Positions 2,388 through 19,220 of a stretch of DNA of 19,646 bases are shown here, piece after piece. Positions within the stretch are counted from its first letter, which is position 1. Each line of letters opens with the position of its first letter. Both the position numbers and the translations under genes were made by a program. The DNA is from a virus (taxonomy: Duplodnaviria; Heunggongvirae; Uroviricota; Caudoviricetes). The notes under the pieces are model-generated. The model made no database searches and was not told where the DNA came from. It saw only the letters and a program-made list of their open reading frames with translations. Where the stretch lies: the IMG/VR virus record IMGVR_UViG_3300030444_000128; one strand, given 5' to 3'.

Positions 2388-3085
2388 AGATTGCTTTAGT
2401 TCTTCGCTCTGGTGGTGACTATAACGCTTCCGATGTGCAGTGGCTGGTTAATCAACTGCCAAAAGGCTATGAAATTATTTGCCTGACAGACCTGAAGCGT
2501 TTACATGTACCTGGCGTCAAAGTTGTCCCATTGATCAACCAGTGGCAAAAGTGCCGTGGCTGGTGGGCGAAAATCGAGTTGTTCCGACCGGATATAACCG
2601 ATGATCTGTTCTATCTGGATTTGGACACGGTTATTGCCGGTGATATACGCCCAATCCTAGAGAATCCACCAACCAGCTTCACCATGCTTAGGGATTTTTA
2701 CCATCCACAATATCGTGGCAGCGGTGCCCTGTGGATACCAAATAGTGTAAAAGTGCATATCTGGAGTGCATTCTGGCAAGATCCGGAAGGTTGGATTGCT
2801 CGTTGTGTTACTACTGAATGCTGGGGTGAGCAGGGGTTTTTGCGGAAGGTTATGGGTGATGATACACCAGTATTTCAGGATCTGTATCCGGGATGGTTTG
2901 TAAGTTACAAGGCCGATGTTGTGGAACCTGGTTCGAAATATGCGAGCGCGCGTTACTCCAGGGGGAATGGGGCATTACCAAAAGACTGCCGAATAATCTT
3001 TTTCCACGGCAAACCGCGACCTCGCGAAGTGTCAGAGGATTGGCTTCCCCTTATCAGCTCATTTTTTGAGCGAGAATCAGAATAA
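2384..3085 (+). CDS. hypothetical protein, possible nucleotide-sugar (DXD-type) glycosyltransferase
   Basis: ORF 2384-3085, start overlapping the phosphatase stop (ATGA). Contains YLDLDTVI (DXD-like) after a beta-alpha-beta-like N-terminus. Family assignment is weak. Confidence 0.45.
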
Positions 3086-3086
3086 T

Positions 3087-3103
3087 ATTGCTCTAATAAT
3101 TCC
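3087..3103 (+). promoter_or_regulatory. C1-repressor operator-like site
   Basis: ATTGCTCTAATAATTCC versus the P1 C1 operator consensus ATTGCTCTAATAAATTT as I remember it (14/17). Lies immediately after the stop at 3083-3085. Confidence 0.6.
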
Positions 3104-3111
3104 ATATTTTT

Positions 3112-3141
3112 AAAACGTGATGTACACTCATCACGTTTTTT
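3112..3141. terminator. bidirectional rho-independent terminator
   Basis: AAAACGTGATG-TACACT-CATCACGTTTT: perfect 11-bp stem with an A-tract before and a T-tract after, so a hairpin plus U-run forms on either strand. Confidence 0.65.
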
Positions 3142-3152
3142 ATTAGAGCAAT
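3136..3152 (-). promoter_or_regulatory. C1-repressor operator-like site (inverted relative to 3087-3103)
   Basis: Minus strand reads ATTGCTCTAATAAAAAA (14/17 to consensus). Together with 3087-3103 it forms an inverted operator pair around the terminator, directly upstream of the 3167 operon. Confidence 0.55.
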
Positions 3153-3166
3153 CTATAAGGTGCACT

Positions 3167-3385
3167 ATGTGGCCATTCCGACGGAAATATCACTACTGGC
3201 TGATCGCCTTTGTTACGCTGACCGGCGGTATCAGGCATGTCATCACCAGGTATCGCAACAAGAGACTCACCTTAGCCAGAATTTTACAGGCTGCCATAGG
3301 TGAGGGACTGGATACAAATTGCGTAGTCCTTCCACCTTCATACTTAGGAAAAATGACCGAAGCACAAGCTAATACGGAACTTTGA
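3167..3385 (+). CDS. small hypothetical protein, probable single-pass membrane protein
   Basis: ORF 3167-3385 (72 aa). AAGGTG at 3157-3162, 4 nt before the ATG. Hydrophobic stretch YWLIAFVTLTGGI. Stop at 3383-3385 lies 1 nt before the next ATG (coupling). Confidence 0.4.
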   Translation: MWPFRRKYHYWLIAFVTLTGGIRHVITRYRNKRLTLARILQAAIGEGLDTNCVVLPPSYLGKMTEAQANTEL

Positions 3386-3386
3386 A

Positions 3387-4649
3387 ATGAGCACTTCAGC
3401 ACAAAACCAATCAATCGAAAATGTATCTATCCCTGATGTCCTGAATGCCGGTATCCCGGCCATTATCCAGAACATCCGGGCCGCGCAACGCCGCGTTAGT
3501 TGTGATGACCTCACAGCACGTTTTTTTGATAATGCGGTTCAGTCAGCGGAGATGCTTCACGCACAGCTTATTGATGTTTATAACGCAGAAGCTGATAGCC
3601 ATAACTCCCTGGTAGATGCAGCTGAAAATATGCAGTTGGATCTCGGTCTGAAGGGTAAAGAAATTGAAGAGCTTCAGCTGCAAATTGAACATTTGAAACG
3701 CCAGCAACAGGACGCGATCGACGATGCGACGCATGACGCCAACCAGCGTGCTGATAATGCCGAACGTATAAGCATTGAGCTGGAAACAAAACTCAATGAA
3801 ATGACCGCGATGGTTGAACTGCGGAACTCACAGATTTCAACGCTAAAATCTCAATATAAAGAGATCATGAAACTTGATCCTTTTAACCTTGAGAAACGCT
3901 ATAACAAAGCTAAAAGCGAGCGACAGGAACTGCGTAAGCAGGTCGCTGACCTTAACCAACAGCTCAAAAAAACTATTAAAGATGCAAGCGAAGCGCGCGT
4001 GGCATTTGCTAATAAAAAAGCAGAGGTTACCGCGCTGGTTAATGAGAATGCCAAATTTGCGACGCTCAAGAAGGAAATGTATGGCATTACTGAGCGCCGT
4101 TTCCCTGCAAGCAAACTTCATCCGACGTTAGGGCAAATCTCCTTCTTCCCGCGCCTCCTGGCTTATGGGATCTCATCGCCTAAAGAGTTCAATAACGAGC
4201 GTCCTTATATCGTTTCTAAGCTGGACTTTGCTTATCAGTTCTGCTGCGACATGGGCTATGCCATTGATATCCGAATCAACGAATGGTTGATGCCAAACTT
4301 CCAGCCGTTGGCAATTTTCCGCGAGTTCCAGCCGGAAGGTTGGGTAGAGTTCTTCCATGAATTGATCTGTAAAGAGATGGAAAGCCGCCGCCCGGAATTG
4401 GTCCGTCGAGTTGAGTGGGCGCAAGAGGTTATGTTGGCAGATGCAGAGCTGCCGTTCGAACCGGAATTCATTGATGATCTGGCAACTAAAGGGCTGCATA
4501 CCCTGTTTGATGTGGTTACCCGCCGTCATGAGCAGTTGGTTGTCGAATTGGGTTTAGAGGAAACTGCGGCAAGAAGACTTCTCGATGTTTGCTATGCACG
4601 TAGCGATGCATGGGAAAAAGAGAACGGCGGCACTATTTACGTTCGCTGA
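3387..4649 (+). CDS. hypothetical coiled-coil protein (420 aa)
   Basis: Long ORF with a heptad-like, charged Q/E/K-rich segment at roughly residues 90-220 and a globular C-terminal half. No family recognised. Followed by a strong terminator. Confidence 0.7.
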   Translation: MSTSAQNQSIENVSIPDVLNAGIPAIIQNIRAAQRRVSCDDLTARFFDNAVQSAEMLHAQLIDVYNAEADSHNSLVDAAENMQLDLGLKGKEIEELQLQIEHLKRQQQDAIDDATHDANQRADNAERISIELETKLNEMTAMVELRNSQISTLKSQYKEIMKLDPFNLEKRYNKAKSERQELRKQVADLNQQLKKTIKDASEARVAFANKKAEVTALVNENAKFATLKKEMYGITERRFPASKLHPTLGQISFFPRLLAYGISSPKEFNNERPYIVSKLDFAYQFCCDMGYAIDIRINEWLMPNFQPLAIFREFQPEGWVEFFHELICKEMESRRPELVRRVEWAQEVMLADAELPFEPEFIDDLATKGLHTLFDVVTRRHEQLVVELGLEETAARRLLDVCYARSDAWEKENGGTIYVR

Positions 4650-4722: not shown

Positions 4723-5229
4723 TTGAGTATTTACAATAAACACGCACACCAGGAACGTCCGTACATCGTCATAGTAGATATTGATGGGACGATATCAGAG
4801 GCAACGGAAGACAGGTTGCATTTACTTCCACCACCTGGCAAAGGTGCATTAACAGAGCACTGGAACGAGTTTAACCTTGCCTGTGACACTGATGCTCCCA
4901 TCACTCCAGTTATTGATATGGTGCGCCAGTTGTCCAGCATTTACACGCTCTGGTTTGTAACCGGGCGCTGTGAGATAGCCAGGGATAAAACACGAGCCTG
5001 GTTGCGTAAGCACGTAACAAATGGGGCTGAGCCTTTGCTATCTATGCGTCCTGCCACCGATGACAGAAATGATGGTCCAGCAAAGATTGATCTCCTTAAG
5101 AAAATTGGTCTAAGTAAAATTGCATTCGCGCTGGAAGATAAGATTGAAGTAGCGCGTGTTTTCAGGCATCACGGCGTGCTTACGTTAATGGTCAGAGAGT
5201 ACGAAAATGCGCTTCTTCATCAACAATAA
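4723..5229 (+). CDS. HAD-superfamily hydrolase-like protein (putative phosphatase)
   Basis: TTG start with GAGGAGG at 4712-4718. N-terminal VIVDIDGTIS (HAD motif I, DxDGT), FVTGR (motif II), AKIDLLKK and ALEDK (motifs III/IV-like). Confidence 0.65.
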   Translation: MSIYNKHAHQERPYIVIVDIDGTISEATEDRLHLLPPPGKGALTEHWNEFNLACDTDAPITPVIDMVRQLSSIYTLWFVTGRCEIARDKTRAWLRKHVTNGAEPLLSMRPATDDRNDGPAKIDLLKKIGLSKIAFALEDKIEVARVFRHHGVLTLMVREYENALLHQQ

Positions 5230-5245
5230 TTGCTCTAATAAATCT
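5229..5245 (+). promoter_or_regulatory. C1-repressor operator-like site
   Basis: ATTGCTCTAATAAATCT, 16/17 to the remembered consensus, overlapping the stop codon of the HAD gene. Confidence 0.65.
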
Positions 5246-5493: not shown

Positions 5494-8400
5494 CTATATT
5501 TTTCCGCCTACGCCTTTAAACTTCTCAATAAACGAGACGATTTTCTGGAAAACTGCCTGTTTTTTCGTTTTATATTGCGGATTCAACGGACTAAGTTTTG
5601 GTAATGTTTCGTTTAATTCTGTGCCATTTTCGGTGGCGTATTCGCGTTTTAAAGACGTGCGAATATAGCGTTTTGCTGCATCTTCATTGAGATTTTCTTC
5701 TTTTATCAATGCTTCTGCTTCACGTTGCTGTTCGCGTTGAGCAAACGTAAAGAATGCCTCAATGATACTGGCTTTGTCTGGTAAATCATCCAGGTTCGTT
5801 TGCTGAATAAAATCGACCACCAGGCCCTCTTTCGCCCGGTTCCCCAGGCTTGAACGAATTAAGCGTTTGACCTCTTCGATCATTTCGCCCTTGCCTTTAT
5901 TTTGTCTGTTGTGTTCGAAAATCAGTCCAAGGATATAATCCAGGTTTATTTCCTGAGACTTCAGCAAATCGACCTCAAAAACCACGTCATCCCAGTCAGT
6001 GGTTGATTTCTCTTTTTTCTCAGCTTCTTTCTCACGGCGCTGCCAGTCGCGAATATCGTTATAGGCAGAACGATAATCCTGAATCTTGCGATCAGCAGGG
6101 AGACGAATTGTTTGCAATTCAGCGAACTTTTCATCATCCACATAATGTTCTGCTTTGAATTTTTCTACCGCAACAGGATCGCTAAGATCGATTTGTTGCA
6201 GGGCTTTTAGCGTGGCAAATTCATCATAGTTTTGCAGGATGTTCTCGGCACGCAGGTATTCGCCAAACAGTTTAACGAAGTCTTTCTTCTCTTTTTCACT
6301 TTCAATACTGGCAGGGTCAGGGAACCGTTGTTCCAGTTCTGAAACTACTGCCATAAAGCCGCGTTTGGCTTCACCGGTGGCAGCATCAGTAAAACCTTCC
6401 ATATACTCTGCATAACTCTTTTCTAACACCACATTTTTGGTATTTTTATCACCAAACAGCGTTATGGCATCAATGGTTGAGCGTTCCAGATCCCGAAAAG
6501 TGACAATGTTACCGAAGGTTTTAGTGGCGTTATAAATGCGGTTGGTGCGGGAAAATGCCTGCATCAGGCCGTGAAAACGCAAGTTTTTATCGACGAATAG
6601 CGTGTTCAATGTTGGAGCGTCGAAGCCGGTTAAAAACATCCCAACGACAATTAACAGATCGATATCCTGATTTTTAACCCGTTGGGCTAAATCGCGATAG
6701 TAGTTCTGAAAACCGTTACCGTCGGTGCTGAAGTTAGTTTTAAAATAGCTGTTATACTCACGAATTGCAGCGTCAAGAAACTCTTTAGCACTGCTGTCCA
6801 TTGCGCTGGTATCAAAAGTTTCATCGGAAATTTCACCAATGGCATTTTGTTCTTCATTAGCGGCAAAGGAGAAGATTGTCGCAACACGCAGCGGTTTATA
6901 AGTTGCAGATTTATTAGCGGCTTCCTCTTGTAACCGTTTAAACGCCGCGTAATAGGCTTTTGCAGCATCCACGCTGCTCACTGCCAACATAGCATTAAAA
7001 CCTTTTGCGCCAGGGAAAGTACGGTGCGTCTTCTGGCGGAAGTTATTCAGAATATATTGCGTAATTTCCTGTATACGCATGGGATGAAGAAACGCCTGCT
7101 GATTTTCAGCCGCACTTAGTTTTTTCTCGTCAGTTTCTGTCTCTAAAGACTTAAACTGTGGCCGCACATCGTTGTAGTCCACCTTGAATTTGAGCACTTT
7201 TTCATCACGAATCGCATCGGTAATTACATACGAATGCAATTCACGACCAAATACGCTGGCGGTCGTTTCTGAGCCTAAGGCGTTTTCCGGGAAAATAGGT
7301 GTGCCGGTAAAACCAAACTGATAATAGCGTTTGAATTTCTTCTTCAGGTTTTTCTGCGCTTCTCCAAACTGGCTGCGGTGGCATTCATCAAATATAAACA
7401 CCACTTGCTGATTATATACAGGCAGGTCGCTTTCTGCTTTCATCAGGTTATTGAGTTTCTGAATAGTAGTGACGATAATTTTGTTATCGTCCTTATCCAG
7501 ATTTCGTTTAAGGCCTGCGGTATTTTCCGAGCCGTTGACGCTGTCTGGCGAAAAACGCTGATATTCCTTCATGGTCTGGTAATCGAGGTCTTTCCTGTCG
7601 ACCACAAAGAAGACTTTATCAATAAAGTCCAGCTCTGTTGCCAGACGCGCGGCTTTAAAGCTGGTGAGGGTTTTACCAGAACCGGTAGTGTGCCAGATAT
7701 ACCCACCGCTTTCCGGTTTTGACCAGTTCTTCGCTGTAAAGGAACTCTTAATTTTCCACAGAATGCGCTCGGTGGCGGCAATCTGGTACGGTCGCATCAC
7801 CAGTAGCGTCTGACTACTGTCAAAAACGCTGTAGTTCACCAGAACATTCAGCAGAGTATGTTTCTGGAAAAAGGTAGCGGTAAAGTCTTTGAGGTCTTTA
7901 ATCAGCGTGTTGTCTGATTTCGCCCAATTCATGGTGAAGTCAAAACTGTTTTTATCGCGCTTTGTCGTGTTGGCAAAATAACGGGTATCGGTGCCGTTAG
8001 AAATGACAAACAGTTGCAGATACTTAAACAGGGAATTTTCGCTGTTAAAACTCTCTTTACTGTAACGATGTATCTGGTTGAAAGCCTCACGAATCGCCAC
8101 CCCGCGTTTTTTTAGTTCGATTTGCACCAGCGGTAAACCATTAACCAGGATCGTGACGTCATAACGGTTAGCATGAGAACCCGTCTGTTCAAACTGCTGG
8201 ATAATCTGCACCTTATTGCGCATGAGATTCTTTTTATCTATCAAATAGATGTTCTCAAGTCGCCCGTCATCAAAAATAAAGTCGCAGATATAGTCGATAT
8301 GGATTTTACGGGTTTTATCCAGAATACCATCGCTGGGGTTGTCCAGATACTGCTCCGTGAAGCGCCGCCACTCGCTGTCATTAAACATCACACCATTGAG

Positions 8401-8610
8401 GCTCTGAAGCTGTTCCCGAACATTGGACAGCATTGCCGACTGTGATTTTACGGAAATAAATTCATAACCCTGATTTTGCAGGTCCTGAATCAGTTCACGT
8501 TCCAGGTCCGATTCGCTCTGGTAGCTGTCGCCTGTTGGCTCAGCTTTGATGTACTTATCAAGAACGATAAAGTTATTGGATTCAGCAATGGTGTGTGTCT
8601 GATGAGTCAT
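5494..8610 (-). CDS. hsdR: type I restriction enzyme R subunit (HsdR), EcoR124-like (type IC)
   Basis: 1038-aa ORF with helicase motifs ([12 protein letters not shown] Walker A; [14 protein letters not shown]-box-like) and the type I HsdR architecture. Length and N-terminus match my memory of EcoR124 HsdR. Lies downstream of hsdM-hsdS on the same strand. Confidence 0.93.
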
Positions 8611-8731
8611 AGCGCATCCTTTGTGCCGTCTGGCAAGGGCCGGAAGGGGGGTAATGGTGACTTCCGGCGCGTAAAAAATAGTCTATATACTGACCGGGTG
8701 TTAAGGTGGTCCGATCGGTAGCAATGATCAA

Positions 8732-9949
8732 TTAATTACTGGCAGTTTCAGGTTTCGGGAAACTGAACAGTAAATCACGGTAGTATTCGTATTGTTTCTG
8801 GCGCAACTCGATTTCACGCGGGAGACCTTCGGTGATAGAGTTGGTCAGGGTGTCGAATTTATCGAGTATTTCGACAATGCGAGCTTGTTCCTTAAGTGAT
8901 TTTTCGTGATCTTTAGGATATGGAACCGGAATCATAATTTTTGAAAAACCATTAATGAGTAGTGTATTAACTTTTGTTCTGGCTACATACTTTGCTTTTT
9001 CAGAAATAAACGAATCGGTTTGCATGTAATAGGAAATAAATTTTGGATTCAAAGAATGTCGAAAAGCATAACAGTGATCATGAATAGCGATATCGTCATC
9101 CCCAAGCCATGCCACTGCTTTACCAACGTCTTCTACAGTCTCCCCCACGTCAGTTATCACGACATCTCCATGTTTGGCATAGCGTAATGACGCTGCCATA
9201 TCAGCTCTAACCTGTGATAACGAATGAGTTGTGTAAACACCATATCGTGTATATATCTCACCATAATGGATTACACTGATACCACCATCTTCTACATAAT
9301 CTGCTTTAGTAAAACGTTTTCCACGAATAAACTCACCAATTTCCCCCAAAGTCTTCCACTCAACCTCACCATCTTTAAAACTCAACAACTGGTCGCGATA
9401 GTAGTTGTACTGTTTTTTACGCATGTTAAGCTCAGCGGTAAGCTCAGCGGTAAGTGCAGTAAATTTATCCAGAATCCGAACGATTTCAGACTGGATGGCA
9501 AGGGATTTTTCCGGATTATCCGGGCAGGGGATGGGGATAGGGAAATTCTCTAAGGTTGATAGCACGATATATGTCATTGCCGCGCTATTTGTTCTTTCCT
9601 CGAGATATTTCTTCAGGCTATGGCTAAGCACAAAATACAAAAATCTAACACTTACATTTTCGTCGAAATTTGTCAGAACATAGGTGCGCTGATAAGCCTC
9701 AAACTTGCCGATGTAATGCTTCACCTCACCAACATTCGCATTGCCTGCAATCAGCAATGCCTCTGTATCCCAGCGGAATTTATCAATTTTGCTTGTCTCT
9801 TTGGCTGTCGTGAAGAACATATACTCTCCATCATCAACAGCCGCATTCGCATTAAGCTTTCCTGTTTCAATTTTGCAAGTTTGCCCAAGTGTCTTCCACT
9901 CAACCTCAACCCCATCCAGCAATTTTTCCAGATAACTCATCTCGCTCAT
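8732..9949 (-). CDS. hsdS: type I restriction-modification specificity subunit (HsdS), type IC with TAEL x2 central repeat
   Basis: 405-aa ORF with two target-recognition halves (EVEWKTLG occurs twice) and the central conserved region ...[29 protein letters not shown]. Start ATG overlaps the hsdM stop (ATGA). Confidence 0.92.
9429..9452 (-). repeat. 12-bp tandem repeat (2 copies) encoding TAEL-TAEL in the HsdS central spacer
   Basis: Plus strand GCTCAGCGGTAA GCTCAGCGGTAA. On the coding strand this is the LTAELTAEL segment whose copy number is known to set the spacer length of type IC recognition sites. Confidence 0.9.
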
Positions 9950-11508
9950 TTCTGCACCTCGCAGCCTTCAATTTCAGCCACAATTGCATCAATATCTTTA
10001 CGCAACTGGTCGATTTTGCTGACCGTGGTTTTCAGCTCTGCATTCAGCTCACCGATATCGATAATTTCGCGGTTATCTTTCGCTTCCACATAGCTGCTCA
10101 CCGACAGGTTATAGTCATTCGCGACAACAGTCTCAAACGCAACAGATTTCGCCAGATGAGCAACATCTTCCTTGCTGGCAAATACCTGCATAATCTGTTC
10201 GATATGGGCATCGGTCAGGATATTGTTGTTGGTTTCTTTTTTGAACAGTTCGCTGGCATCAATAAACTGAACTTTGGTATCCGTTTTATGTTTAGACAGC
10301 ACCAGAATGTTTACAGCAATAGTGGTGCCAAAGAACAGGTTCGGTGCCAGTGAAATCACGGTTTCGACATAGTTATTATCGACCAGATACTGACGGATTT
10401 TCTGCTCCGCGCCGCCACGGTAAAAAATACCCGGGAAGCAGACAATCGCAGCACGACCTTTGGCCGAAAGATAGTTCAGCGCATGTAGTACAAACGCAAA
10501 GTCAGCTTTGGATTTGGGGGCCAGGACGCCAGCCGGGGCAAAACGTTCATCGTTAATCAGCGTCGGGTCATCGCTGCCAATCCATTTCACCGAATACGGC
10601 GGGTTAGAAACGATGGCATCAAACGGTTTTTCATCTCTGAAGTGTGGCTCAGTCAGTGTATTACCCAGCTTGATATCAAACTTGTCGTAGTTGATGTTGT
10701 GCAAAAACATGTTCATACGTGCCAGGTTATAGGTTGTATGGTTGATTTCCTGACCAAAAAAGCCTTCTTCGATGATATGGTTATCAAACTGCTTTTTAGC
10801 CTGCAACAACAGTGAGCCGGAACCCGCTGCCGGGTCGTAGATTTTGTTAACGTTGGTCTGCCCGTGCATAGCCAGTTGTGCAATCAGCTTGGAGACGTGC
10901 TGCGGTGTAAAGAACTCACCGCCTGACTTACCGGCATTTGCCGCATAGTTAGAAATCAGGAACTCATAGGCATCACCGAACAGGTCAATCTGATGTTCGT
11001 TGAAGTCACCAAGTTTTAACCCTTCAACCCCTTTCAGAACCGCAGCCAGGCGGGCATTTTTATCTTTAACGGTGTTACCCAGGCGGTTACTGGTGGTATC
11101 GAAATCAGCAAACAAACCTTTGATGTCTGCTTCTGAAGGGTAGCCGTAAGCAGAACTTTCGATAGCAACGAAGATGCTGTTTAAATCTGCGTTCAGTCTG
11201 TCATTGGTATTTGCTTTCGCAGCTACGTTGCAGAAAAGCTGACTGGGGTAGATGAAGTAGCCTTTAGTTTTGATGGCATCGTCTTTAATGTCATCAGTAA
11301 TTACGCTGTCATCCAGTTTCGCATAACAGATACTGTCATCACCGGCTTCAATATAACTGGAAAAATTTTCGCTGATAAAACGGTAGAAAAGTGCGCCCAG
11401 AACGTATTGCTTAAAATCCCATCCATCGACCGAACCCCTGACATCGTTAGCAATTTGCCAGATTTGACGATGAAGCTCTGCACGTTGTTGAATACTTGTC
11501 ATTTTCAT
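9946..11508 (-). CDS. hsdM: type I restriction-modification N6-adenine DNA methyltransferase subunit (HsdM)
   Basis: 520-aa ORF with the catalytic NPPY motif ([10 protein letters not shown]) and an AdoMet-binding region ([10 protein letters not shown]). Confidence 0.95.
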
Positions 11509-14167: not shown

Positions 14168-15361
14168 GTGACCTGGGACGATCACAAGAAGAATTTTGCT
14201 CGCCTGGCGCGAGATGGTGGTTACACCATCGCACAGTATGCCGCCGAGTTTAATCTTAACCCTAATACCGCACGTCGTTATCTCCGTGCCTTCAAAGAAG
14301 ACACCAGGACAGCGGACAGCCGCAAGCCAAATAAGCCAGTCAGGAAGCCACTAAAAAGCATGATCATTGATCACTCTAATGATCAACATGCAGGTGATCA
14401 CATTGCGGCTGAAACAGCGGAAAAACAAAGAGTTAATGCCGTTGTCAGTGCCGCAGTCGAGAATGCGAAGCGCCAAAATAAGCGCATAAATGATCGTTCA
14501 GATGATCATGACGTGATCACCCGCGCCCACCGGACCTTACGTGATCGCCTGGAACGCGACACCCTGGATGATGATGGTGAACGCTTTGAATTCGAAGCTG
14601 GCGATTACCTGATAGATAACGTTGAAGCGCGGAAGGCCGCGCGCGCTATGTTGCGTCGGTCCGGGGCCGATGTTCTGGAAACCACTCTTCTGGAAAAGTC
14701 TCTTTCTCATCTCCTTATGCTGGAGAACGCCAGGGATACGTGTATTCGCCTGGTGCAGGAAATGCGCGATCAGCAAAAAGACGATGATGAAGGTACTCCG
14801 CCTGAATACCGTATCGCGAGCATGCTAAACAGCTGTTCCGCGCAGATAAGCAGTCTGATCAACACCATTTACAGCATCCGGAATAACTATCGAAAAGAAA
14901 GCCGGGAGGCGGAAAAGCACGCTTTGTCTATGGGGCAAGCTGGCATTGTTAAGCTGGCATATGAACGAAAGCGTGAAAATAACTGGTCAGTGCTGGAAGC
15001 AGCTGAATTCATCGAGGCGCATGGTGGGAAAGTTCCGCCCCTGATGCTGGAGCAAATCAAAGCCGATCTGCGTGCTCCTAAGACCAATACCGATGATGAG
15101 GAAAGGCAAACAGCCGTCGGTGGCCCTTCTCTTGACGATCTGGACAAAGTTGCGCGAGAACGGGCCGCCAACCGCCGCGCCGATGCCGCATTGTGGATTG
15201 AGCAGCGTAGGGAAGAAATCGCCGATATCGTTGATACAGGCGGTTATGGAGATGTTGATACTGAAGGTGTATCAAACGACCCATGGCTGGAACAAGACCT
15301 GGACGAAGACGAGGAGGAAGACGAAGAAGTTACCCGCAAGCTATACGGGGATGATGATTAA
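14168..15361 (+). CDS. pacA: P1 PacA (pacase / terminase small component)
   Basis: 397-aa ORF from GTG 14168 (GGAAG SD). Contains the characteristic pac hexanucleotide cluster near its 5' end and an acidic C-terminal tail. Stop overlaps the next start (ATGA). Confidence 0.9.
14361..14519. other. P1 pac packaging site (4 + 3 TGATCA/G hexanucleotide repeats with Dam GATC sites)
   Basis: TGATCA at 14361, 14368, 14380 and 14395; TGATCG at 14491; TGATCA at 14503 and 14514. Two clusters about 90 bp apart inside pacA, matching the described roughly 160-bp pac architecture. Confidence 0.9.
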
Positions 15362-16340
15362 TGGCCAGAAGTTGCGTAACGGATCCTCGTTGGCGCGAGC
15401 TGGTGGCGCTATATCGTTATGACTGGATTGCTGCCGCTGATGTTTTGTTCGGCAAAACACCTACCTGGCAGCAGGATCTGATTATTGAGTCTGTGCAGGA
15501 ACAGGGTAGCAAGACATCTGTTTCGTCTGGTCACGGTACCGGGAAATCAGACATGACTTCTATCATGATCATGTTGTTCATAATCATGTATCCCGGTGCC
15601 CGCGCCATTATCGTTGCGAACAAAATTCAGCAGGTAATGACCGGTATATTCAAGTACATCAAGATAAACTGGGCTACTGCCACCAGCCGTTTTCCATGGC
15701 TTGCTGATTATTTTGTTCTGACAGAAACCGCTTTCTATGAGGTTACTGGTAAAGGTGTATGGACTGTATCAATATCATGATGGTGTCCGGCCAGCGAAAT
15801 AAACGCCGTGTAATCAACTATCGAATGCTGGAATACACAGACGTTACAGAAACGCAGCTTGCCGCCAAAATTTTCGCAGAATGTAATCCTGAGCGATTCC
15901 CCAATATCACCATAGCGATAGATGGCGATGGCCTGGGTAAAGCAACAGCGGATCTGATGTACGAGTATTATGGTATTACCGTACAGCGTATACGCTGGGG
16001 TAAAAAGATGCATAGCCGTGAAGATAAGAGCCTGTACTTTGATAAACGTGCTTATGCCAACGTTCAAGCCGCAGAGGCCGTAAAATCTGGTCGTATGAGA
16101 CTGGATAAGGGTAATGAAACTATTGAGGAAGCGTCGAAAATCCCTGTAGGGATTAACTCCGCAGGTCAATGGAAGGTGATGAGTAAGGAGGATATGAAGA
16201 AAAAACTCAACCTGCACTCACCAGACCATTGGGATACATATTGTTTCGCTATGCTGGCGGATTATGTTCCCCAGGATGAAGTGCTTAGCGTCGAAGACGA
16301 AGCGCAGGTTGATGAAGCTCTGGCATGGCTTAATGAATGA
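15361..16340 (+). pseudogene. pacB: pacB (terminase large component), apparently internally deleted and frameshifted
   Basis: Two ORFs in different frames: 15361-15780 carries the Walker A (SGHGTGKSD) and 15759-16340 carries a nuclease-domain-like segment ([11 protein letters not shown]...HSPDHWD). No Walker B anywhere. The combined length (~326 codons) is well below the ~494 aa I recall for P1 PacB. A TAA at 15750-15752 blocks the frame of the second ORF upstream. Confidence 0.6.
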
Positions 16341-16343
16341 ACA

Positions 16344-16360
16344 TTTGCTCTAATAAATTG
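16344..16360 (+). promoter_or_regulatory. C1-repressor operator-like site
   Basis: TTTGCTCTAATAAATTG, 15/17 to consensus, immediately after the pacB stop. Confidence 0.6.
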
Positions 16361-16490
16361 TGTTTTTTAGCTACCGATGTTACATTGAACCTGACCTCTT
16401 GCGCCTTGAGGCATTTTCGGTTTATGCTTATCAGGCACCTCATTAAAACGGGTGCCGGGATTGGCCTCCCGCTTAAGTCTAAGGCGATAC

Positions 16491-16514
16491 AGACGCCGCT
16501 CGCGTCTTTTTTTT
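16491..16514 (+). terminator. probable rho-independent terminator
   Basis: AGACGC-CGCTC-GCGTCT followed by seven T: short GC-rich stem plus T-tract, downstream of pacB. Confidence 0.5.
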
Positions 16515-16679
16515 GTATCGGCGTACACGCACACCTCTACAATGGTGGGCTGTATGGGGCTACCTTCGGGTAGGCTGGTTACCTTGGACGCCAGTAAGGC
16601 CAACTCCGTACAGTCCACCGCCAGCAAGATTGGTCTCTTCTGCGGTGGTTACATACCAACGTCTAAGGAGGCTGCCAAT

Positions 16680-16901
16680 ATGGCTACTATCCCTACCCCA
16701 ACTCATCCTGAATTTATCTGGCGCTTTTACTCCTGCCAAAAACGTCACTATCACTTCGTTATTGCACCAACAGAAGATGAGGCCCGCTCTCAGCTTCCTG
16801 ACGCCCCATGTATTTTCTCTGCCCGTTTTTCCACTGATTCACGCAATTCTCTCAGTTACTGGTGCCTCCCTGTTAACGCTTCTGTTCAGGAGGGGCTATG
16901 A
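16680..16901 (+). CDS. small hypothetical protein (73 aa)
   Basis: ATG 16680 preceded by AAGGAGG (16665-16671). Stop TGA overlaps the ATG of the next gene (ATGA at 16898), suggesting coupling. It is the inner part of ORF 16452-16901. Confidence 0.45.
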   Translation: MATIPTPTHPEFIWRFYSCQKRHYHFVIAPTEDEARSQLPDAPCIFSARFSTDSRNSLSYWCLPVNASVQEGL

Positions 16902-18016
16902 GAACGTCATTAGTCACCCGTGAAGAGATGATCGAGGCAATTGAACAGCACACTGCCTGTATCAGCACCAGGGATATTCCCAGTGTTATAGCCAACTACT
17001 TCATGATCACTAAACAACTTTACCGGAGAAAGGACAAGAACGCGGTTCACCGTATCCTGCTGTCTGATATTCGCGAATACCTGCTCGAACAGGGTCATCT
17101 GAATTACGCAACCGTCGCAGCCGAAGCACGCAAGGAGGCACACAGAATGAAAGCAACTAACGTTAAATCAGAAAAAATTCATGCACCTTCAGTTCAGGAA
17201 TCGGAGCTGGTGGTTGTTCAGAATCAGTCTGATGAAATTCCCGTTCTGGAATGGCAGGGAGTGCGTGTAGTGACAACCGAGACTCTTGCTAGAGGGTATG
17301 GGACAGAAACAATCCGTATTCGCCAAAATCATCATGAGAACAAAGTACGCTTTGTTGAAGGGAAGCACTTTTTCAAAGTTGAAGGAGAATCATTGCGCGA
17401 GTTGAAGCACAGAGTAGCTTTAAACTACTCTGTAAAAATTGCTCGCAATGTTCGCTCACTCACCCTCTGGACAGAACGCGGCGCAGCCCGCCACGCTAAA
17501 ATGCTCGAAACCGATCAGGCATGGGCATTCTTTGAAAAACTGGAAGACAGCTACTTCCGACAAAAAGAACAGCAACCGATCGCAATCCCCCAGACGCTTC
17601 CTGAAGCCCTACGCCTGGCTGCCGAACTGGCTGAACAAAAGCAACTTCTGGAACAGAAAGCCCACCAGCTAAATCAGCAGCTGGTGGCCGCCGCTCCTAA
17701 AGTCGATTTTGCCGACCGGGTATCAGTAGCTAAAGGGATCCTGATTGGGAATTTTGCAAAGGTTGTTGGACTTAAGCAAAACGCGCTGTTTGTCTGGTTA
17801 CGGGAGAACGGCATCCTGATAGCGTCCGGTGGACGTAAAAATGTGCCGTTCCAGCAGTACATCAACGCGGGGTATTTCACGGTGAAAGAAGTGGTGCTGG
17901 ATGATGAAGATGGCTACCAGATACGGTTGACGCCTCAATTAACGGGTAAAGGCCAGCAGTGGTTGACGCGTAAACTGCTCGATGCTGGCTTGTTAAAACC
18001 GGTGGCAGCTGAATAA
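16898..18016 (+). CDS. antirepressor-like protein (ORF6N-type N-terminal domain + KilA-C/Ant C-terminal domain)
   Basis: Middle region VRVVTTETLARGYGTETIRIRQNHHENKVRFVEGKHFFKVEGESLRELK resembles the ORF6N domain; the C-terminal part (...LFVWLRENGILIASGG...QQYINAGYFTVKE) resembles the phage antirepressor C-terminal domain. AGGAGG 4 nt before ATG 16898. An internal ATG at 17147 also has a strong AGGAGG SD, so a shorter 289-aa product is possible. Confidence 0.7.
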   Translation: MRTSLVTREEMIEAIEQHTACISTRDIPSVIANYFMITKQLYRRKDKNAVHRILLSDIREYLLEQGHLNYATVAAEARKEAHRMKATNVKSEKIHAPSVQESELVVVQNQSDEIPVLEWQGVRVVTTETLARGYGTETIRIRQNHHENKVRFVEGKHFFKVEGESLRELKHRVALNYSVKIARNVRSLTLWTERGAARHAKMLETDQAWAFFEKLEDSYFRQKEQQPIAIPQTLPEALRLAAELAEQKQLLEQKAHQLNQQLVAAAPKVDFADRVSVAKGILIGNFAKVVGLKQNALFVWLRENGILIASGGRKNVPFQQYINAGYFTVKEVVLDDEDGYQIRLTPQLTGKGQQWLTRKLLDAGLLKPVAAE

Positions 18017-18048
18017 TGGAAGAATGCCCGGTTGATGCCGGGCATAAT

Positions 18049-18993: not shown

Positions 18994-19010
18994 TAGATTT
19001 ATTAGTGCAT
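18994..19010 (-). promoter_or_regulatory. C1 operator-like site between coi and c1
   Basis: Minus strand ATGCACTAATAAATCTA, an operator-like variant with the CTAATAAAT core, directly after the coi stop and about 95 bp upstream of the c1 start. Confidence 0.5.
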
Positions 19011-19220
19011 TTATTGTGAGTCTAACTGGTTAGTTGCCATGAGATATTCGATTGTGTCAGTGAGGTCATCCAGGTCGTCTTGGGTGATGCGGTACTCCTG
19101 ATTGGATATCTTTGAGTAGTGTTCAGCAATGGCGCGGGCTGCGTCGGTTTCGGCAGGGTCTACAGATAAAGCGTTAGAGCAATGTCTAACGTCGTCGATG
19201 GTTGGTTGAATGAAAGCCAT
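19011..19220 (-). CDS. coi: Coi (C1 inactivator)
   Basis: 69-aa acidic protein immediately upstream of c1 on the same strand, with GAGG SD. Matches the P1 coi-c1 arrangement. Confidence 0.85.
   Translation of the reverse strand: MAFIQPTIDDVRHCSNALSVDPAETDAARAIAEHYSKISNQEYRITQDDLDDLTDTIEYLMATNQLDSQ

What the first reader, a model, noticed from the sequence alone, without database searches (positions are those of the whole stretch)
16341..18048. Antirepressor-like module (73-aa gene plus ORF6N/KilA-C protein) between pacB and c1, converging on c1
Between the pacB stop and the 3' end of c1 there is 1.7 kb containing a C1 operator-like site (16344-16360), a terminator, and then two coupled genes with strong RBSs. 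The second has ORF6N-like and Ant C-terminal-like domains. I do not remember any gene between pacB and c1 in P1, so this may be an inserted or lineage-specific module. An antirepressor next to and convergent with the master repressor gene would be a notable wiring of the lysis-lysogeny switch.
Basis: partly seen in the sequence, partly recalled or inferred. Interest (0 to 1): 0.5.

Follow-up and report, generated by a model that had tools for sequence, protein, structure and literature searches.

The report
Second RNA-gated antirepressor cassette beside c1
The 1.7 kb between pacB and c1 is an extra copy of the phage P1 "immI" immunity cassette (small antisense RNA, Icd, Ant antirepressor) with its own RNA recognition code; it is common in wild P1-like plasmids but missing from laboratory P1 and P7.

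Summary
Window 16341-18048 exactly replaces the 24-bp pacB-c1 spacer of P1.

It holds every part of a P1 immI operon:
- a C1 operator-like site and P1-aligned promoters;
- an isrK-type leader RNA (Rfam 60.8 bits) carrying the a1/b1 sites and ending in an intrinsic terminator;
- a C4 antisense RNA (75.9 bits);
- a2/b2 target sites, with b2 over the Shine-Dalgarno of a 73-aa Icd homologue (82% identical to P1 Icd);
- an ATGA-coupled 372-aa Ant1 homologue with a conserved internal Ant2 start.

The Ant centre is an ORF6N domain. Its N- and C-terminal parts match P1 Ant.

The C4 loops and all four targets co-vary between cassette types. This cassette's code differs from the P1, P7 and sister-phage immI codes. 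Predicted cross-pairing is weaker than between heteroimmune P1 and P7.

About 41% of c1-bearing plasmids carry such a module at this site. One plasmid has three cassettes.

The insertion is annotated in databases and mentioned in the literature, but I found no functional analysis. It is a further member of a known kind, of moderate interest.

The parts
16344..16360 (+). C1 operator-like site (TTTGCTCTAATAAATTG), the counterpart of P1 Oc4/Op51
   Evidence: Two mismatches from the consensus; 5 such sites in the window against 0.15 expected. In the alignment it lies over the P1 run that holds the annotated Oc4 operator, offset by one column. C1 binding was not tested.
16358..16386 (+). Promoter-like element equivalent to P1 P2c4/P51a: TTGTGT, 17 nt, TACATT with a TGn extension; it overlaps the operator
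   Evidence: My reading of the sequence after alignment to the annotated P1 promoter. The generic promoter scan did not call it.
16406..16434 (+). Promoter-like element equivalent to P1 P1c4/P51b: TTGAGG, 17 nt, TATCAG. The -10 is weak. An alternative -10, TATGCT at 16423-16428, would fit a start at 16435.
   Evidence: Alignment to the annotated P1 promoter. The transcription start is not determined.
16435..16512 (+). isrK-type leader RNA carrying C4-complementary sites a1 (16461-16467, UUGGCCU) and b1 (16477-16484, GUCUAAGG); it ends in an intrinsic terminator (hairpin 16491-16507 plus U8)
   Evidence: Rfam RF01394, 60.8 bits against a gathering score of 50. Terminator scan and fold. Site coordinates. 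Across 7 leaders most variable columns fall in a1, b1 and the terminator loop.
16538..16625 (+). C4 antisense RNA. The mature form is about 16544-16622 by alignment to the 77-nt P1 C4. Recognition loops: b' 16582-16590 (CCUUGGACG) and a' 16597-16603 (AGGCCAA).
   Evidence: Rfam RF01695, 75.9 bits against a gathering score of 45. In 10 homologues 94% of cells are paired, 12 pairs change on both sides, and 0 of 500 shuffles reach this. Loop coordinates.
16630..16671 (+). mRNA target region: a2 (16630-16636, UUGGUCU), b2 (16660-16668, CGUCUAAGG), and the icd Shine-Dalgarno AAGGAGG (16665-16671), which overlaps b2
   Evidence: Complementarity search. Same layout as the annotated a2/b2 sites of P1. 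Cognate duplex energy -24 kcal/mol.
16680..16901 (+). icd homologue, 73 aa, the upstream ORF translationally coupled to ant
   Evidence: 82% identical to P1 Icd, which is also 73 aa. NCBIfam NF033153, 49.8 bits. dN/dS 0.04-0.12. ATGA overlap with ant.
16898..18016 (+). ant1 homologue, 372 aa: P1-Ant1-like N-terminus, ORF6N centre, KilAC C-terminus
   Evidence: 56% identical to P1 Ant1 overall. The C-terminal ~140 residues are nearly identical and the centre is unalignable. Pfam ORF6N and ANT. PHROG 63, E 2e-131. dN/dS 0.09-0.31.
17147..18016 (+). In-frame internal start equivalent to P1 ant2 (Met84; AAGGAGG at 17132-17138)
   Evidence: Met84 is invariant in 7 Ant proteins, including P1 and P7, where ant2 is annotated at this codon. 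Sequence read. Use of this start was not tested.
18024..18045 (.). Hairpin between the ant stop (18016) and the c1 stop (18049); candidate two-way terminator
   Evidence: Stem of 9 pairs. Folds at -19.0 kcal/mol on the + strand and -14.6 on the - strand, z -3.1 and -2.7. The U tracts are weak, so termination is inferred only.

Best explanation
This is a self-contained second immI-type immunity cassette. It sits precisely between the pacB and c1 stop codons of a P1-like phage-plasmid.

**Proposed mechanism**
1. Transcription starts at promoters next to a C1 operator.
2. Part of it stops at the leader terminator. This gives a short isrK-type RNA that carries decoy sites a1 and b1.
3. The rest reads through. 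It yields the C4 antisense RNA and the icd-ant mRNA.
4. The C4 loops a' and b' pair with a2 and b2. Because b2 covers the icd ribosome-binding site, icd is not translated. Because ant is coupled to icd through the ATGA overlap, Ant1/Ant2 are not made either.
5. Where no matching C4 is present, Icd and Ant are made. Ant then inactivates the conserved C1 repressor and pushes the phage, and any resident relative, into lytic growth.

**What the cassette adds.** Its recognition code differs from that of the canonical immI. It therefore adds a second, independent immunity specificity. A carrier can break the immunity of lysogens that lack the matching C4, and it is itself immune to relatives that use this code.

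**Shown here:** the parts, their homology, the complementarity, the covariation, the distinct code, the purifying selection and the prevalence.

**Inferred:** RNA processing, translational repression, C1 binding by Ant, and the ecological role.
For: **Anatomy**
- Every immI part is present in the P1 order, and the icd ORF has the same length (222 nt) as in P1.
- Icd is 82% identical to P1 Icd. Ant is 56% identical to P1 Ant1 overall and about 93% over the C-terminal domain, with the Ant2 start conserved.

**RNA recognition code**
- a' and b' are complementary to a1, b1, a2 and b2, and b2 overlaps the Shine-Dalgarno.
- The loops and their targets change together in 9 different a'/b' codes from 11 elements.
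- They also co-vary in all 38 operator-anchored modules from IMG/VR, which fall into 5 a/b combinations.
- Predicted duplex energies are -22 to -27 kcal/mol for cognate pairs. They are -7 to -8 between this C4 and P1, P7 or 673R5 immI targets. P1 against P7, known to be heteroimmune, gives -15 to -18.
- The C4 secondary structure is supported by covariation.

**Selection and distribution**
- dN/dS is 0.04-0.31.
- Phages 673R5, RCS47 and JL22 carry both this module and a canonical immI.
- 290 plasmids carry at least 80% of the module, against 702 that carry c1. The module is also in 279 of 5426 complete E. coli genomes.

**Experimental precedent.** In Gifsy-1, short IsrK pairs with the downstream RNA at positions that by my coordinate mapping correspond to a1 and a' here, and it activates translation of the coupled antirepressor. 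That antirepressor induces the prophage (PMC4825925).
Against: - Nothing here shows that the RNAs are made or processed, or that this ORF6N-type Ant binds C1.
- The central third of Ant differs completely from P1 Ant, and which part of P1 Ant contacts C1 is not known to me.
- The P51b-equivalent -10 (TATCAG) is poor, and the generic promoter scan called neither promoter.
- b' pairs with b1/b2 through one G-U wobble, as does a' with a2.
- pacB in this window carries a 503-bp frameshifting deletion. This particular element probably cannot package DNA, so the 'offensive' role cannot operate here.
- Whether this genome also has a canonical immI cannot be seen from the window.
Confidence: 0.78

Rival explanations
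1. The Ant protein here does not act on P1 C1. Its swapped ORF6N centre redirects it to another target. That target could be the repressor of a co-resident lambdoid or other prophage, as with the trans-acting Gifsy antirepressors, or DNA, as for Roi/Rha-type regulators. The cassette would then be a cross-talk or inter-phage weapon rather than part of P1 immunity.
For: - The central 100-odd residues are unalignable with P1 Ant and form an ORF6N domain.
- This centre is the most divergent part between cassettes: dN 0.17-0.22, against at most 0.03 in the flanks.
- The isrK-C4 RNA pair is about 79-80% identical to one that gates Rha-type regulators in Stx-converting lambdoid phages.
- Some records annotate the protein as 'DNA binding protein Roi'.
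Against: - The N-terminal ~90 residues and the C-terminal ~140 residues are conserved with P1 and P7 Ant1. These include the Ant2 start.
- The cassette keeps a C1 operator-like site in the same place as in P1 immI.
- In plasmid p95JB1A the ORF6N-type Ant also occupies the canonical immI site. It therefore looks like a common allele of the P1 antirepressor.
- All 29 IMG/VR contigs with this exact C4 code are in P1-like pacB context.
Confidence: 0.1
2. The main effect is the wiring the first reader proposed. Transcription of icd-ant runs into the 3' end of c1 and lowers c1 expression, by convergent transcription or antisense RNA. The position next to c1, rather than the Ant protein, would be the point of the insertion.
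For: - Only 32 nt separate the two stop codons.
- On the + strand the hairpin at 18024-18045 is followed by a poor U tract (AAUUUAUU), so read-through is plausible.
- The site is used repeatedly, by at least 5 cassette types and once by a tandem pair.
Against: - The hairpin is stable on both strands.
- Equivalent cassettes work from two other sites that are not next to c1: the canonical immI site and a ref-side site in p95JB1A.
- The ORFs are under purifying selection, which a purely transcriptional role would not require.
Confidence: 0.07
3. The cassette serves the host or plasmid as an abortive-infection or addiction device. C4 would be a labile antidote and Icd (a division inhibitor) plus Ant the toxic output, released when C4 is lost or titrated.
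For: - P1 Icd is annotated as an inhibitor of cell division.
- The cassette persists in an element whose pacB is broken.
- Plasmids carry 1.5 icd loci on average.
Against: - No defence-system library was searched for this, and nothing in the anatomy goes beyond the immI design.
- C4, the antidote, and its targets lie on one transcript. Loss of the plasmid removes both.
- The C1 operator ties expression to the phage switch.
Confidence: 0.04

Closest known systems
immI operon of phages P1 and P7 (Op51/Oc4, P51a/b, a1/b1, c4, a2/b2, icd, ant1/ant2)
   Same: Same parts in the same order, with the 222-nt icd ORF the same length as in P1. This includes the C1 operator, the ATGA-coupled icd-ant pair and the internal ant2 start. 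Icd is 82% identical and the Ant ends are conserved.
   Different: - Location: between pacB and c1, not between sim and kilA-repL.
- Leader: isrK type (RF01394), not c4-a1b1 type (RF03163).
- Different a'/b' code.
- ORF6N centre in Ant.
- It is an addition to, not a replacement of, the canonical immI in the three complete phages that have it.
Gifsy-1 isrK-orf45-anrP locus of Salmonella (Hershko-Shalev et al. 2016, PMC4825925)
   Same: - The leader matches the isrK Rfam model and ends in a terminator with read-through.
- The leader's middle part pairs with the RNA downstream, at positions that I map to a1 and a' here.
- An upstream ORF is translationally coupled to an antirepressor-like gene that induces the prophage.
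   Different: - The Gifsy-1 region after isrK is described as a 45-codon ORF and a processed RNA (STnc1160), not as C4.
- There is no icd there. The output acts through the antiterminator AntQ.
- I did not examine the Gifsy-1 sequence itself.
Second c4-icd-antirepressor region of phage D6 and D6-like plasmids
   Same: isrK-type leader, C4 and icd. The JL22 variant of the pacB-c1 module has exactly the D6 a'/b' code. A second c4/icd region in one genome has been noted before (PMC6799933).
   Different: D6 couples it to a Rha-type protein and has no P1-type operator at the aligned place. The genomic site is different.
isrK-C4 pair upstream of Rha-family regulators in Stx-converting lambdoid phages
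   Same: The leader plus C4 are 79-80% identical over about 260 nt to window 16436-16698. The a/b layout is the same, with their own co-varying codes.
   Different: No icd and no KilAC Ant: the gated gene is a 215-aa Rha-domain protein. The host phage is a different type with a CI repressor.
P4 CI RNA with seqA/seqC, and P22 immI (sar antisense RNA, ant)
   Same: A small RNA made from the same transcript controls an anti-immunity function. The P4 comparison is made in PMC4825925. The P22 parallel is from my own knowledge.
   Different: No sequence relation was tested here. These are analogies of design only.

Membership tests
P1-type immI cassette (c4-icd-ant) | C4 antisense RNA with the family's fold | tested here: met
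   RF01695, 75.9 bits against a gathering score of 45. 94% of cells paired, 12 pairs with changes on both sides, 0 of 500 shuffles reach this.
P1-type immI cassette (c4-icd-ant) | C4 loops a' and b' complementary to a2 and b2 on the downstream mRNA, with b2 over the icd ribosome-binding site | tested here: met
   a' 16597-16603 with a2 16630-16636; b' 16582-16590 with b2 16660-16668; Shine-Dalgarno at 16665-16671. The sites co-vary across 9 different codes and 38 contigs.
P1-type immI cassette (c4-icd-ant) | Duplicate target sites a1 and b1 upstream of c4 | tested here: met
   a1 16461-16467 and b1 16477-16484. Most variable columns in the leader fall in these two sites and the terminator loop.
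P1-type immI cassette (c4-icd-ant) | icd ORF coupled to ant | tested here: met
   73 aa, 82% identical to P1 Icd. NF033153. ATGA overlap.
P1-type immI cassette (c4-icd-ant) | Ant1 with an in-frame Ant2 start and a KilAC domain | tested here: met
   56% identical to P1 Ant1. PF03374, E 4e-31. Met84 invariant, preceded by AAGGAGG.
P1-type immI cassette (c4-icd-ant) | C1-controlled operator and promoters upstream | tested here: inconclusive
   The operator-like site matches 15 of 17 positions and lies over P1 Oc4 in the alignment, offset by one column. The promoter hexamers also align. Binding and promoter activity cannot be tested, and the generic scan did not call the promoters.
P1-type immI cassette (c4-icd-ant) | Ant binds and inactivates C1 | not testable with these tools
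   Inferred from homology only. No solved structure is related by sequence.
P1-type immI cassette (c4-icd-ant) | Canonical map position between sim and kilA-repL | tested here: not met
   It lies between pacB and c1. Position defines the classical locus, not the kind of cassette.
isrK Hfq-binding RNA (RF01394) | Match to the covariance model, with a terminal intrinsic terminator | tested here: met
   60.8 bits against a gathering score of 50, full length 1-77. Hairpin plus U8.
isrK Hfq-binding RNA (RF01394) | Short form acts in trans to activate translation of the downstream coupled genes; binds Hfq | not testable with these tools
   Shown for Gifsy-1 only. Here the leader sites are predicted to bind C4 slightly better than the mRNA sites do, -26.0 against -24.0 kcal/mol.
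ORF6N / KilAC antirepressor proteins | Both Pfam domains above the gathering score | tested here: met
   PF10543, 70.1 bits (cut-off 27.8). PF03374, 107.9 bits (cut-off 25.3).

The most novel reading that the evidence does not exclude
Wild P1-like phage-plasmids may run a multi-locus, combinatorial RNA lock on their shared C1 repressor.

- **Design.** One to three orthogonal C4/Icd/Ant cassettes sit at three fixed sites. The a and b recognition loops appear in different combinations between cassettes.
- **Selection.** Frequency-dependent selection would keep the codes diverse. A rare code breaks the immunity of resident relatives, and more codes give broader immunity.
- **Leader role.** The isrK-type leader would act as a sponge for C4 and set the threshold of each lock.
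- **Cross-talk.** The same RNA pair in Stx-converting lambdoid prophages would open a route for cross-talk between unrelated prophages.
Probability: 0.4. Interest if true: 0.6.

Novelty: new member of a known kind. Interest (0 to 1): 0.36.

Why it matters
Models of P1 immunity come from laboratory P1 and P7, each with one immI. Here about 4 in 10 c1-bearing plasmids carry an extra cassette with its own RNA code at the pacB-c1 site. At least one plasmid carries three.

If the cassettes work as their anatomy implies, two things follow. Which P1-like elements can coexist, exclude or induce each other would depend on a set of short RNA codes that can be read from sequence. That bears on the spread of P1-like plasmids that carry resistance and virulence genes. 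The cassettes would also supply a natural set of orthogonal antisense-RNA switches.

The finding also links the Gifsy-1 IsrK system to the P1 c4 system. That may explain what the long-puzzling a1/b1 sites are for.

Tried and rejected
- **Source record.** I looked for it without success. The records with a 100% identical module either have an intact pacB or a different left flank, so whether this genome has a canonical immI stays open.
- **IMG/VR pattern scan.** A 42-nt exact pattern over the operator and promoter found only 3 contigs because of point variation. A 26-nt pattern worked.
- **JL22 icd.** The dN/dS was meaningless because I took the record's mis-framed 'gp121' ORF, so I dropped it.
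- **C4 alignment.** MAFFT shifts hairpin 2 of the P1-type C4 rows by one column. That helix scores only 76% paired. This is an alignment artefact, not evidence against the fold.
- **Generic promoter scan.** It did not call the P1-aligned promoters. I keep them as 'promoter-like by alignment' only.
- **Structures.** No related solved structure by sequence.
- **'ash family protein'.** NCBIfam gave no model for the ORFs that RefSeq places over C4.
- **Literature.** The original RCS47 paper is not in the library. No search returned a paper analysing a second or third immI in P1-like elements.
- **Spurious ORFs.** I rejected the small ORFs that overlap the RNA region (16337-16573, 16452-16901, 16513-16923 and the minus-strand ones). 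They are by-products of the RNA genes.
Full report
**Setting.** The window is a P1-like (Punavirus) segment. It runs from morphogenesis genes through lpa, pacA and pacB to c1 and coi. It is 96-98% identical over the shared parts to P1, P7, RCS47 and, best of all, phage vB_EcoM-673R5. In P1 the pacB stop and the c1 stop are 24 bp apart. In the window, homology to P1 ends at the pacB stop codon (16340) and resumes at the c1 stop (18049). So 16341-18048 is a precise 1708-bp replacement of that spacer.

- The ORFs are 16680-16901 (73 aa) and 16898-18016 (372 aa). They overlap as ATGA. An AAGGAGG at 16665-16671 precedes the first, and by my reading of the sequence an AGGAGGGG run precedes the second.
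- Pfam gives ORF6N (residues 116-202, E 2e-19) and ANT/KilAC (260-361, E 4e-31). PHROGs puts the protein in 'anti-repressor Ant' (E 2e-131).
- The site at 16344-16360 differs from the C1 operator consensus only at its two outermost bases. Such sites are strongly enriched in the window: 5 found against 0.15 expected.
- A hairpin plus T8 terminator lies at 16491-16507.

- Rfam finds two RNA genes upstream of the ORFs. One is an isrK-type RNA at 16435-16512 (60.8 bits, gathering score 50). The other is a C4 antisense RNA at 16538-16625 (75.9 bits, gathering score 45).
- The 73-aa protein is 82% identical to P1 Icd, which is also 73 aa. It matches NCBIfam 'Icd-like'.
- The 372-aa protein is 56% identical to P1 Ant1. 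It has a mosaic pattern: the N-terminal ~90 residues are similar, the middle is unalignable, and the last ~140 residues are nearly identical.
- Met84, where P1 and P7 ant2 start, is invariant in seven Ant proteins. Here it is preceded by AAGGAGG.

**Comparison with P1 immI.** The segment aligns with the annotated P1 immI along its whole length. The operator lies over the P1 run that holds Oc4/Op51, offset by one column, and the two promoters fall on P2c4 and P1c4. Next come the a1/b1 sites, c4, the a2/b2 sites, icd (the same 222 nt as in P1) and ant. The segment is therefore a full second immI-type operon.

**The RNA code.** In P1, the C4 loops a' and b' pair with a2 and b2 on the icd-ant mRNA. 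The b2 site lies at the icd ribosome-binding site. Copies a1 and b1 lie upstream (annotation).
- The same holds here. a' is AGGCCAA (16597-16603). It pairs with a1 UUGGCCU (16461-16467) and a2 UUGGUCU (16630-16636).
- b' is CCUUGGACG (16582-16590). It pairs with b1 GUCUAAGG (16477-16484) and b2 CGUCUAAGG (16660-16668). b2 overlaps the Shine-Dalgarno at 16665-16671.
- The strongest evidence that these pairings matter is covariation. In 9 different a'/b' codes from 11 elements, the loops and all their targets change together. The set is this module, the RCS47 module, the JL22 module (the same code as the second D6 region), two Stx-type phages, P1, P7, 673R5 immI and the first D6 region.
- In the leader, most variable columns fall in a1, b1 and the terminator loop.
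- Among 38 modules from IMG/VR anchored on the operator sequence, there are five a/b combinations: 22, 9, 4, 2 and 1 contigs. Targets match in every case, and the a and b classes occur in different combinations.
- The C4 fold itself is supported: 94% of cells paired, 12 pairs changed on both sides, 0 of 500 shuffles as good.

**The code differs from the canonical immI.** Simple duplex energies for a'+b' against a2+b2 give three groups:

| Pairing | Energy (kcal/mol) |
|---|---|
| Cognate pairs | -22 to -27 |
| This C4 against P1, P7 or 673R5 immI targets | -7 to -8 |
| P1 against P7 | -15 to -18 |

P1 and P7 are the classical heteroimmune pair, and their difference maps to c4 (my own knowledge; Venturini et al. 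2019, say the same). The segments for this calculation were chosen by hand, so the numbers are only indicative.

**The cassette is an addition.** The three complete phage genomes that have the module (673R5, RCS47, JL22) also have a canonical immI with a different code.

**The genes are maintained.** dN/dS against other module variants is 0.04-0.12 for icd and 0.09-0.31 for ant. The ORF6N centre is the most divergent part in both synonymous and non-synonymous sites. That points to mosaic recombination rather than decay.

**Prevalence.**

| Collection | Count |
|---|---|
| PLSDB plasmids with c1 | 702 |
| PLSDB plasmids with at least 80% of the module | 290 (about 41% of the c1 count) |
| Complete E. 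coli genomes with at least 80% of the module | 279 of 5426 |
| PLSDB plasmids with an Icd homologue | 676, at 1027 places (about 1.5 per plasmid) |

All 29 IMG/VR contigs that hold this exact C4 code have it next to pacB.

**A plasmid with three cassettes.** Plasmid p95JB1A has three cassettes: at pacB-c1, at a site beside ref, and at the canonical site. Each lies behind a C1 operator-like sequence. Each has a different code, and all have ORF6N-type Ant.

**Mechanism proposed.** By homology with P1 immI, C4 made from the same transcript blocks the icd ribosome-binding site. Ant is then not made, because it depends on icd translation (P1 annotation).

The leader is of the isrK type, not the c4-a1b1 type of P1 and P7. 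For Gifsy-1, Hershko-Shalev et al. showed several things about isrK (PMC4825925):
- Part of the isrK transcripts stop at the terminator and part read through.
- IsrK G28 and G31 pair with C162 and C159 downstream. By my mapping of those positions onto window coordinates they fall in a1 and at the edge of a'; I did not check the Gifsy-1 sequence.
- Short IsrK in trans switches on translation of the coupled antirepressor.
- That antirepressor induces the prophage.

Two results here fit the leader acting as a competitor for C4. The minimum-energy fold of 16435-16700 pairs a1 with a' and b1 with b' in cis. In isrK-type cassettes the leader sites are predicted to bind C4 a little better than the mRNA sites do, while P1-type cassettes show the reverse. 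This part is inference.

The biological reading is also inference. C1 is nearly the same in all these elements: 95-100% identical in 697 of 702 plasmids. An incoming relative escapes a resident's repression only if it can make Ant. It can do so only from a cassette whose code the resident's C4 set does not cover. Extra cassettes with rare codes would therefore help both attack and defence, which would explain the code polymorphism.

**Rivals.**
- The ORF6N centre might retarget Ant away from C1. Against this stand the conserved Ant ends, the retained C1 operator-like site, and the presence of the same Ant type at the canonical site.
The hairpin at 18024-18045 is stable on both strands but has weak U tracts. 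Against it, equivalent cassettes sit at two sites far from c1.
- An addiction or abortive-infection role has no specific support.

**Known or new.**
- The insertion is annotated as 'ant' in RCS47. RefSeq annotates it as 'Icd-like' and 'antirepressor' in hundreds of plasmids.
- Venturini et al. [quoted passage not shown] RCS47)'. They also note icd-ant homologues at another site in pSvP1.
- A second c4/icd region was noted in D6-like plasmids.
- I found no paper that treats these as complete, orthogonal, polymorphic immI cassettes, or that links the isrK leader to a1/b1. The library lacks most subscription papers, including the RCS47 and D6 genome papers.
- I file it as a further member of a known kind. 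The multi-cassette picture is the part worth following up.

**This element looks defective.** Compared with RCS47, pacB here lacks 503 bp at 15767/15768 and is frameshifted. The cassette may here serve immunity only.

Noticed in passing
window 15361-16340 (junction at 15767/15768): pacB carries a 503-bp internal, frameshifting deletion relative to RCS47 and P1 (980 nt instead of 1485). It splits into ORFs 15361-15780 and 15759-16340. The element probably cannot package DNA. Only a TA microhomology is visible at the junction.
   Followed up: partly
window 5494-11508 (- strand): A complete type I restriction-modification operon: hsdR 1038 aa (EcoR124-type C-terminal domain), hsdS 405 aa, hsdM 520 aa. 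P1 covers only 57% of the window, while 673R5 annotates HsdR and S subunits in its match to the window.
   Followed up: partly
window 3087-3103 (+), 3136-3152 (-), 5229-5245 (+), 18995-19011 (-): Four further C1 operator-like sites with 1-3 mismatches. The last lies upstream of c1, where P1 has Oc1. The pair near 3.1 kb is in inverted orientation.
   Followed up: no
window 16542-16901: The reading frame that starts at the AUG inside C4 (16542; a second AUG at 16554) is open and in frame with icd, giving 119 codons. These AUGs are at +108 and +120 from the isrK start, about where Gifsy-1 'orf45' starts. RefSeq places small 'ash family protein' ORFs over C4 in related plasmids. In P1 and the RCS47 module, by my hand translation of the sequences, this frame is closed, so the fusion here is probably accidental.
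   Followed up: partly
L063 28590-30268 and 36150-37855; L064 29040-30725 (plasmid p95JB1A, NZ_CP021336.1): One natural P1-like plasmid has three c4-icd-ant cassettes at three sites. Each is behind a C1 operator-like sequence, each has a different a'/b' code, and leader types are mixed (isrK, c4-a1b1, isrK). The Icd proteins at sites 1 and 3 are identical.
   Followed up: partly
L024 (IMG/VR UViG_2698536372_000019), reverse-complement coordinates 7740-10540: Two modules lie in tandem at the pacB-c1 site. They have the same C4 code but different Ant centres. The first is cut in the KilAC region and is followed by the last 44 nt of pacB, which looks like unequal recombination between elements.
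   Followed up: partly
window 17200-17600, and the same part in L016, L019, L023, L024, L026, L040, L041: The ORF6N centre of Ant occurs in at least two alleles that are only 71-78% identical in DNA. The flanks stay at 93-100%. This is a recombination hot spot inside the gene.
   Followed up: partly
isrK-type and c4-a1b1-type cassettes: In isrK-type cassettes the leader sites a1+b1 are predicted to bind C4 more strongly than the mRNA sites a2+b2: -26 to -28 against -22 to -24 kcal/mol. In P1-type cassettes the order is reversed (leader -20 to -24, mRNA about -27). This may reflect different roles of the leader.
   Followed up: no
L008 2495-2701 and 2856-3101 (phage JL22); L001 4553-5326 (phage 673R5): Public annotations of the module are inconsistent. 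In JL22, 'hypothetical proteins' are called over the leader and C4 RNAs and icd is called in the wrong frame. In 673R5, Ant is cut short and named 'DNA binding protein Roi'.
   Followed up: partly
L015 3524-3607 (Shigella phage Ss-VASD): An Rfam sRNA-Xcc1 match (79.6 bits) lies just downstream of the ORF (2605-3390) that follows the isrK-C4 pair in this Stx-type phage.
   Followed up: no
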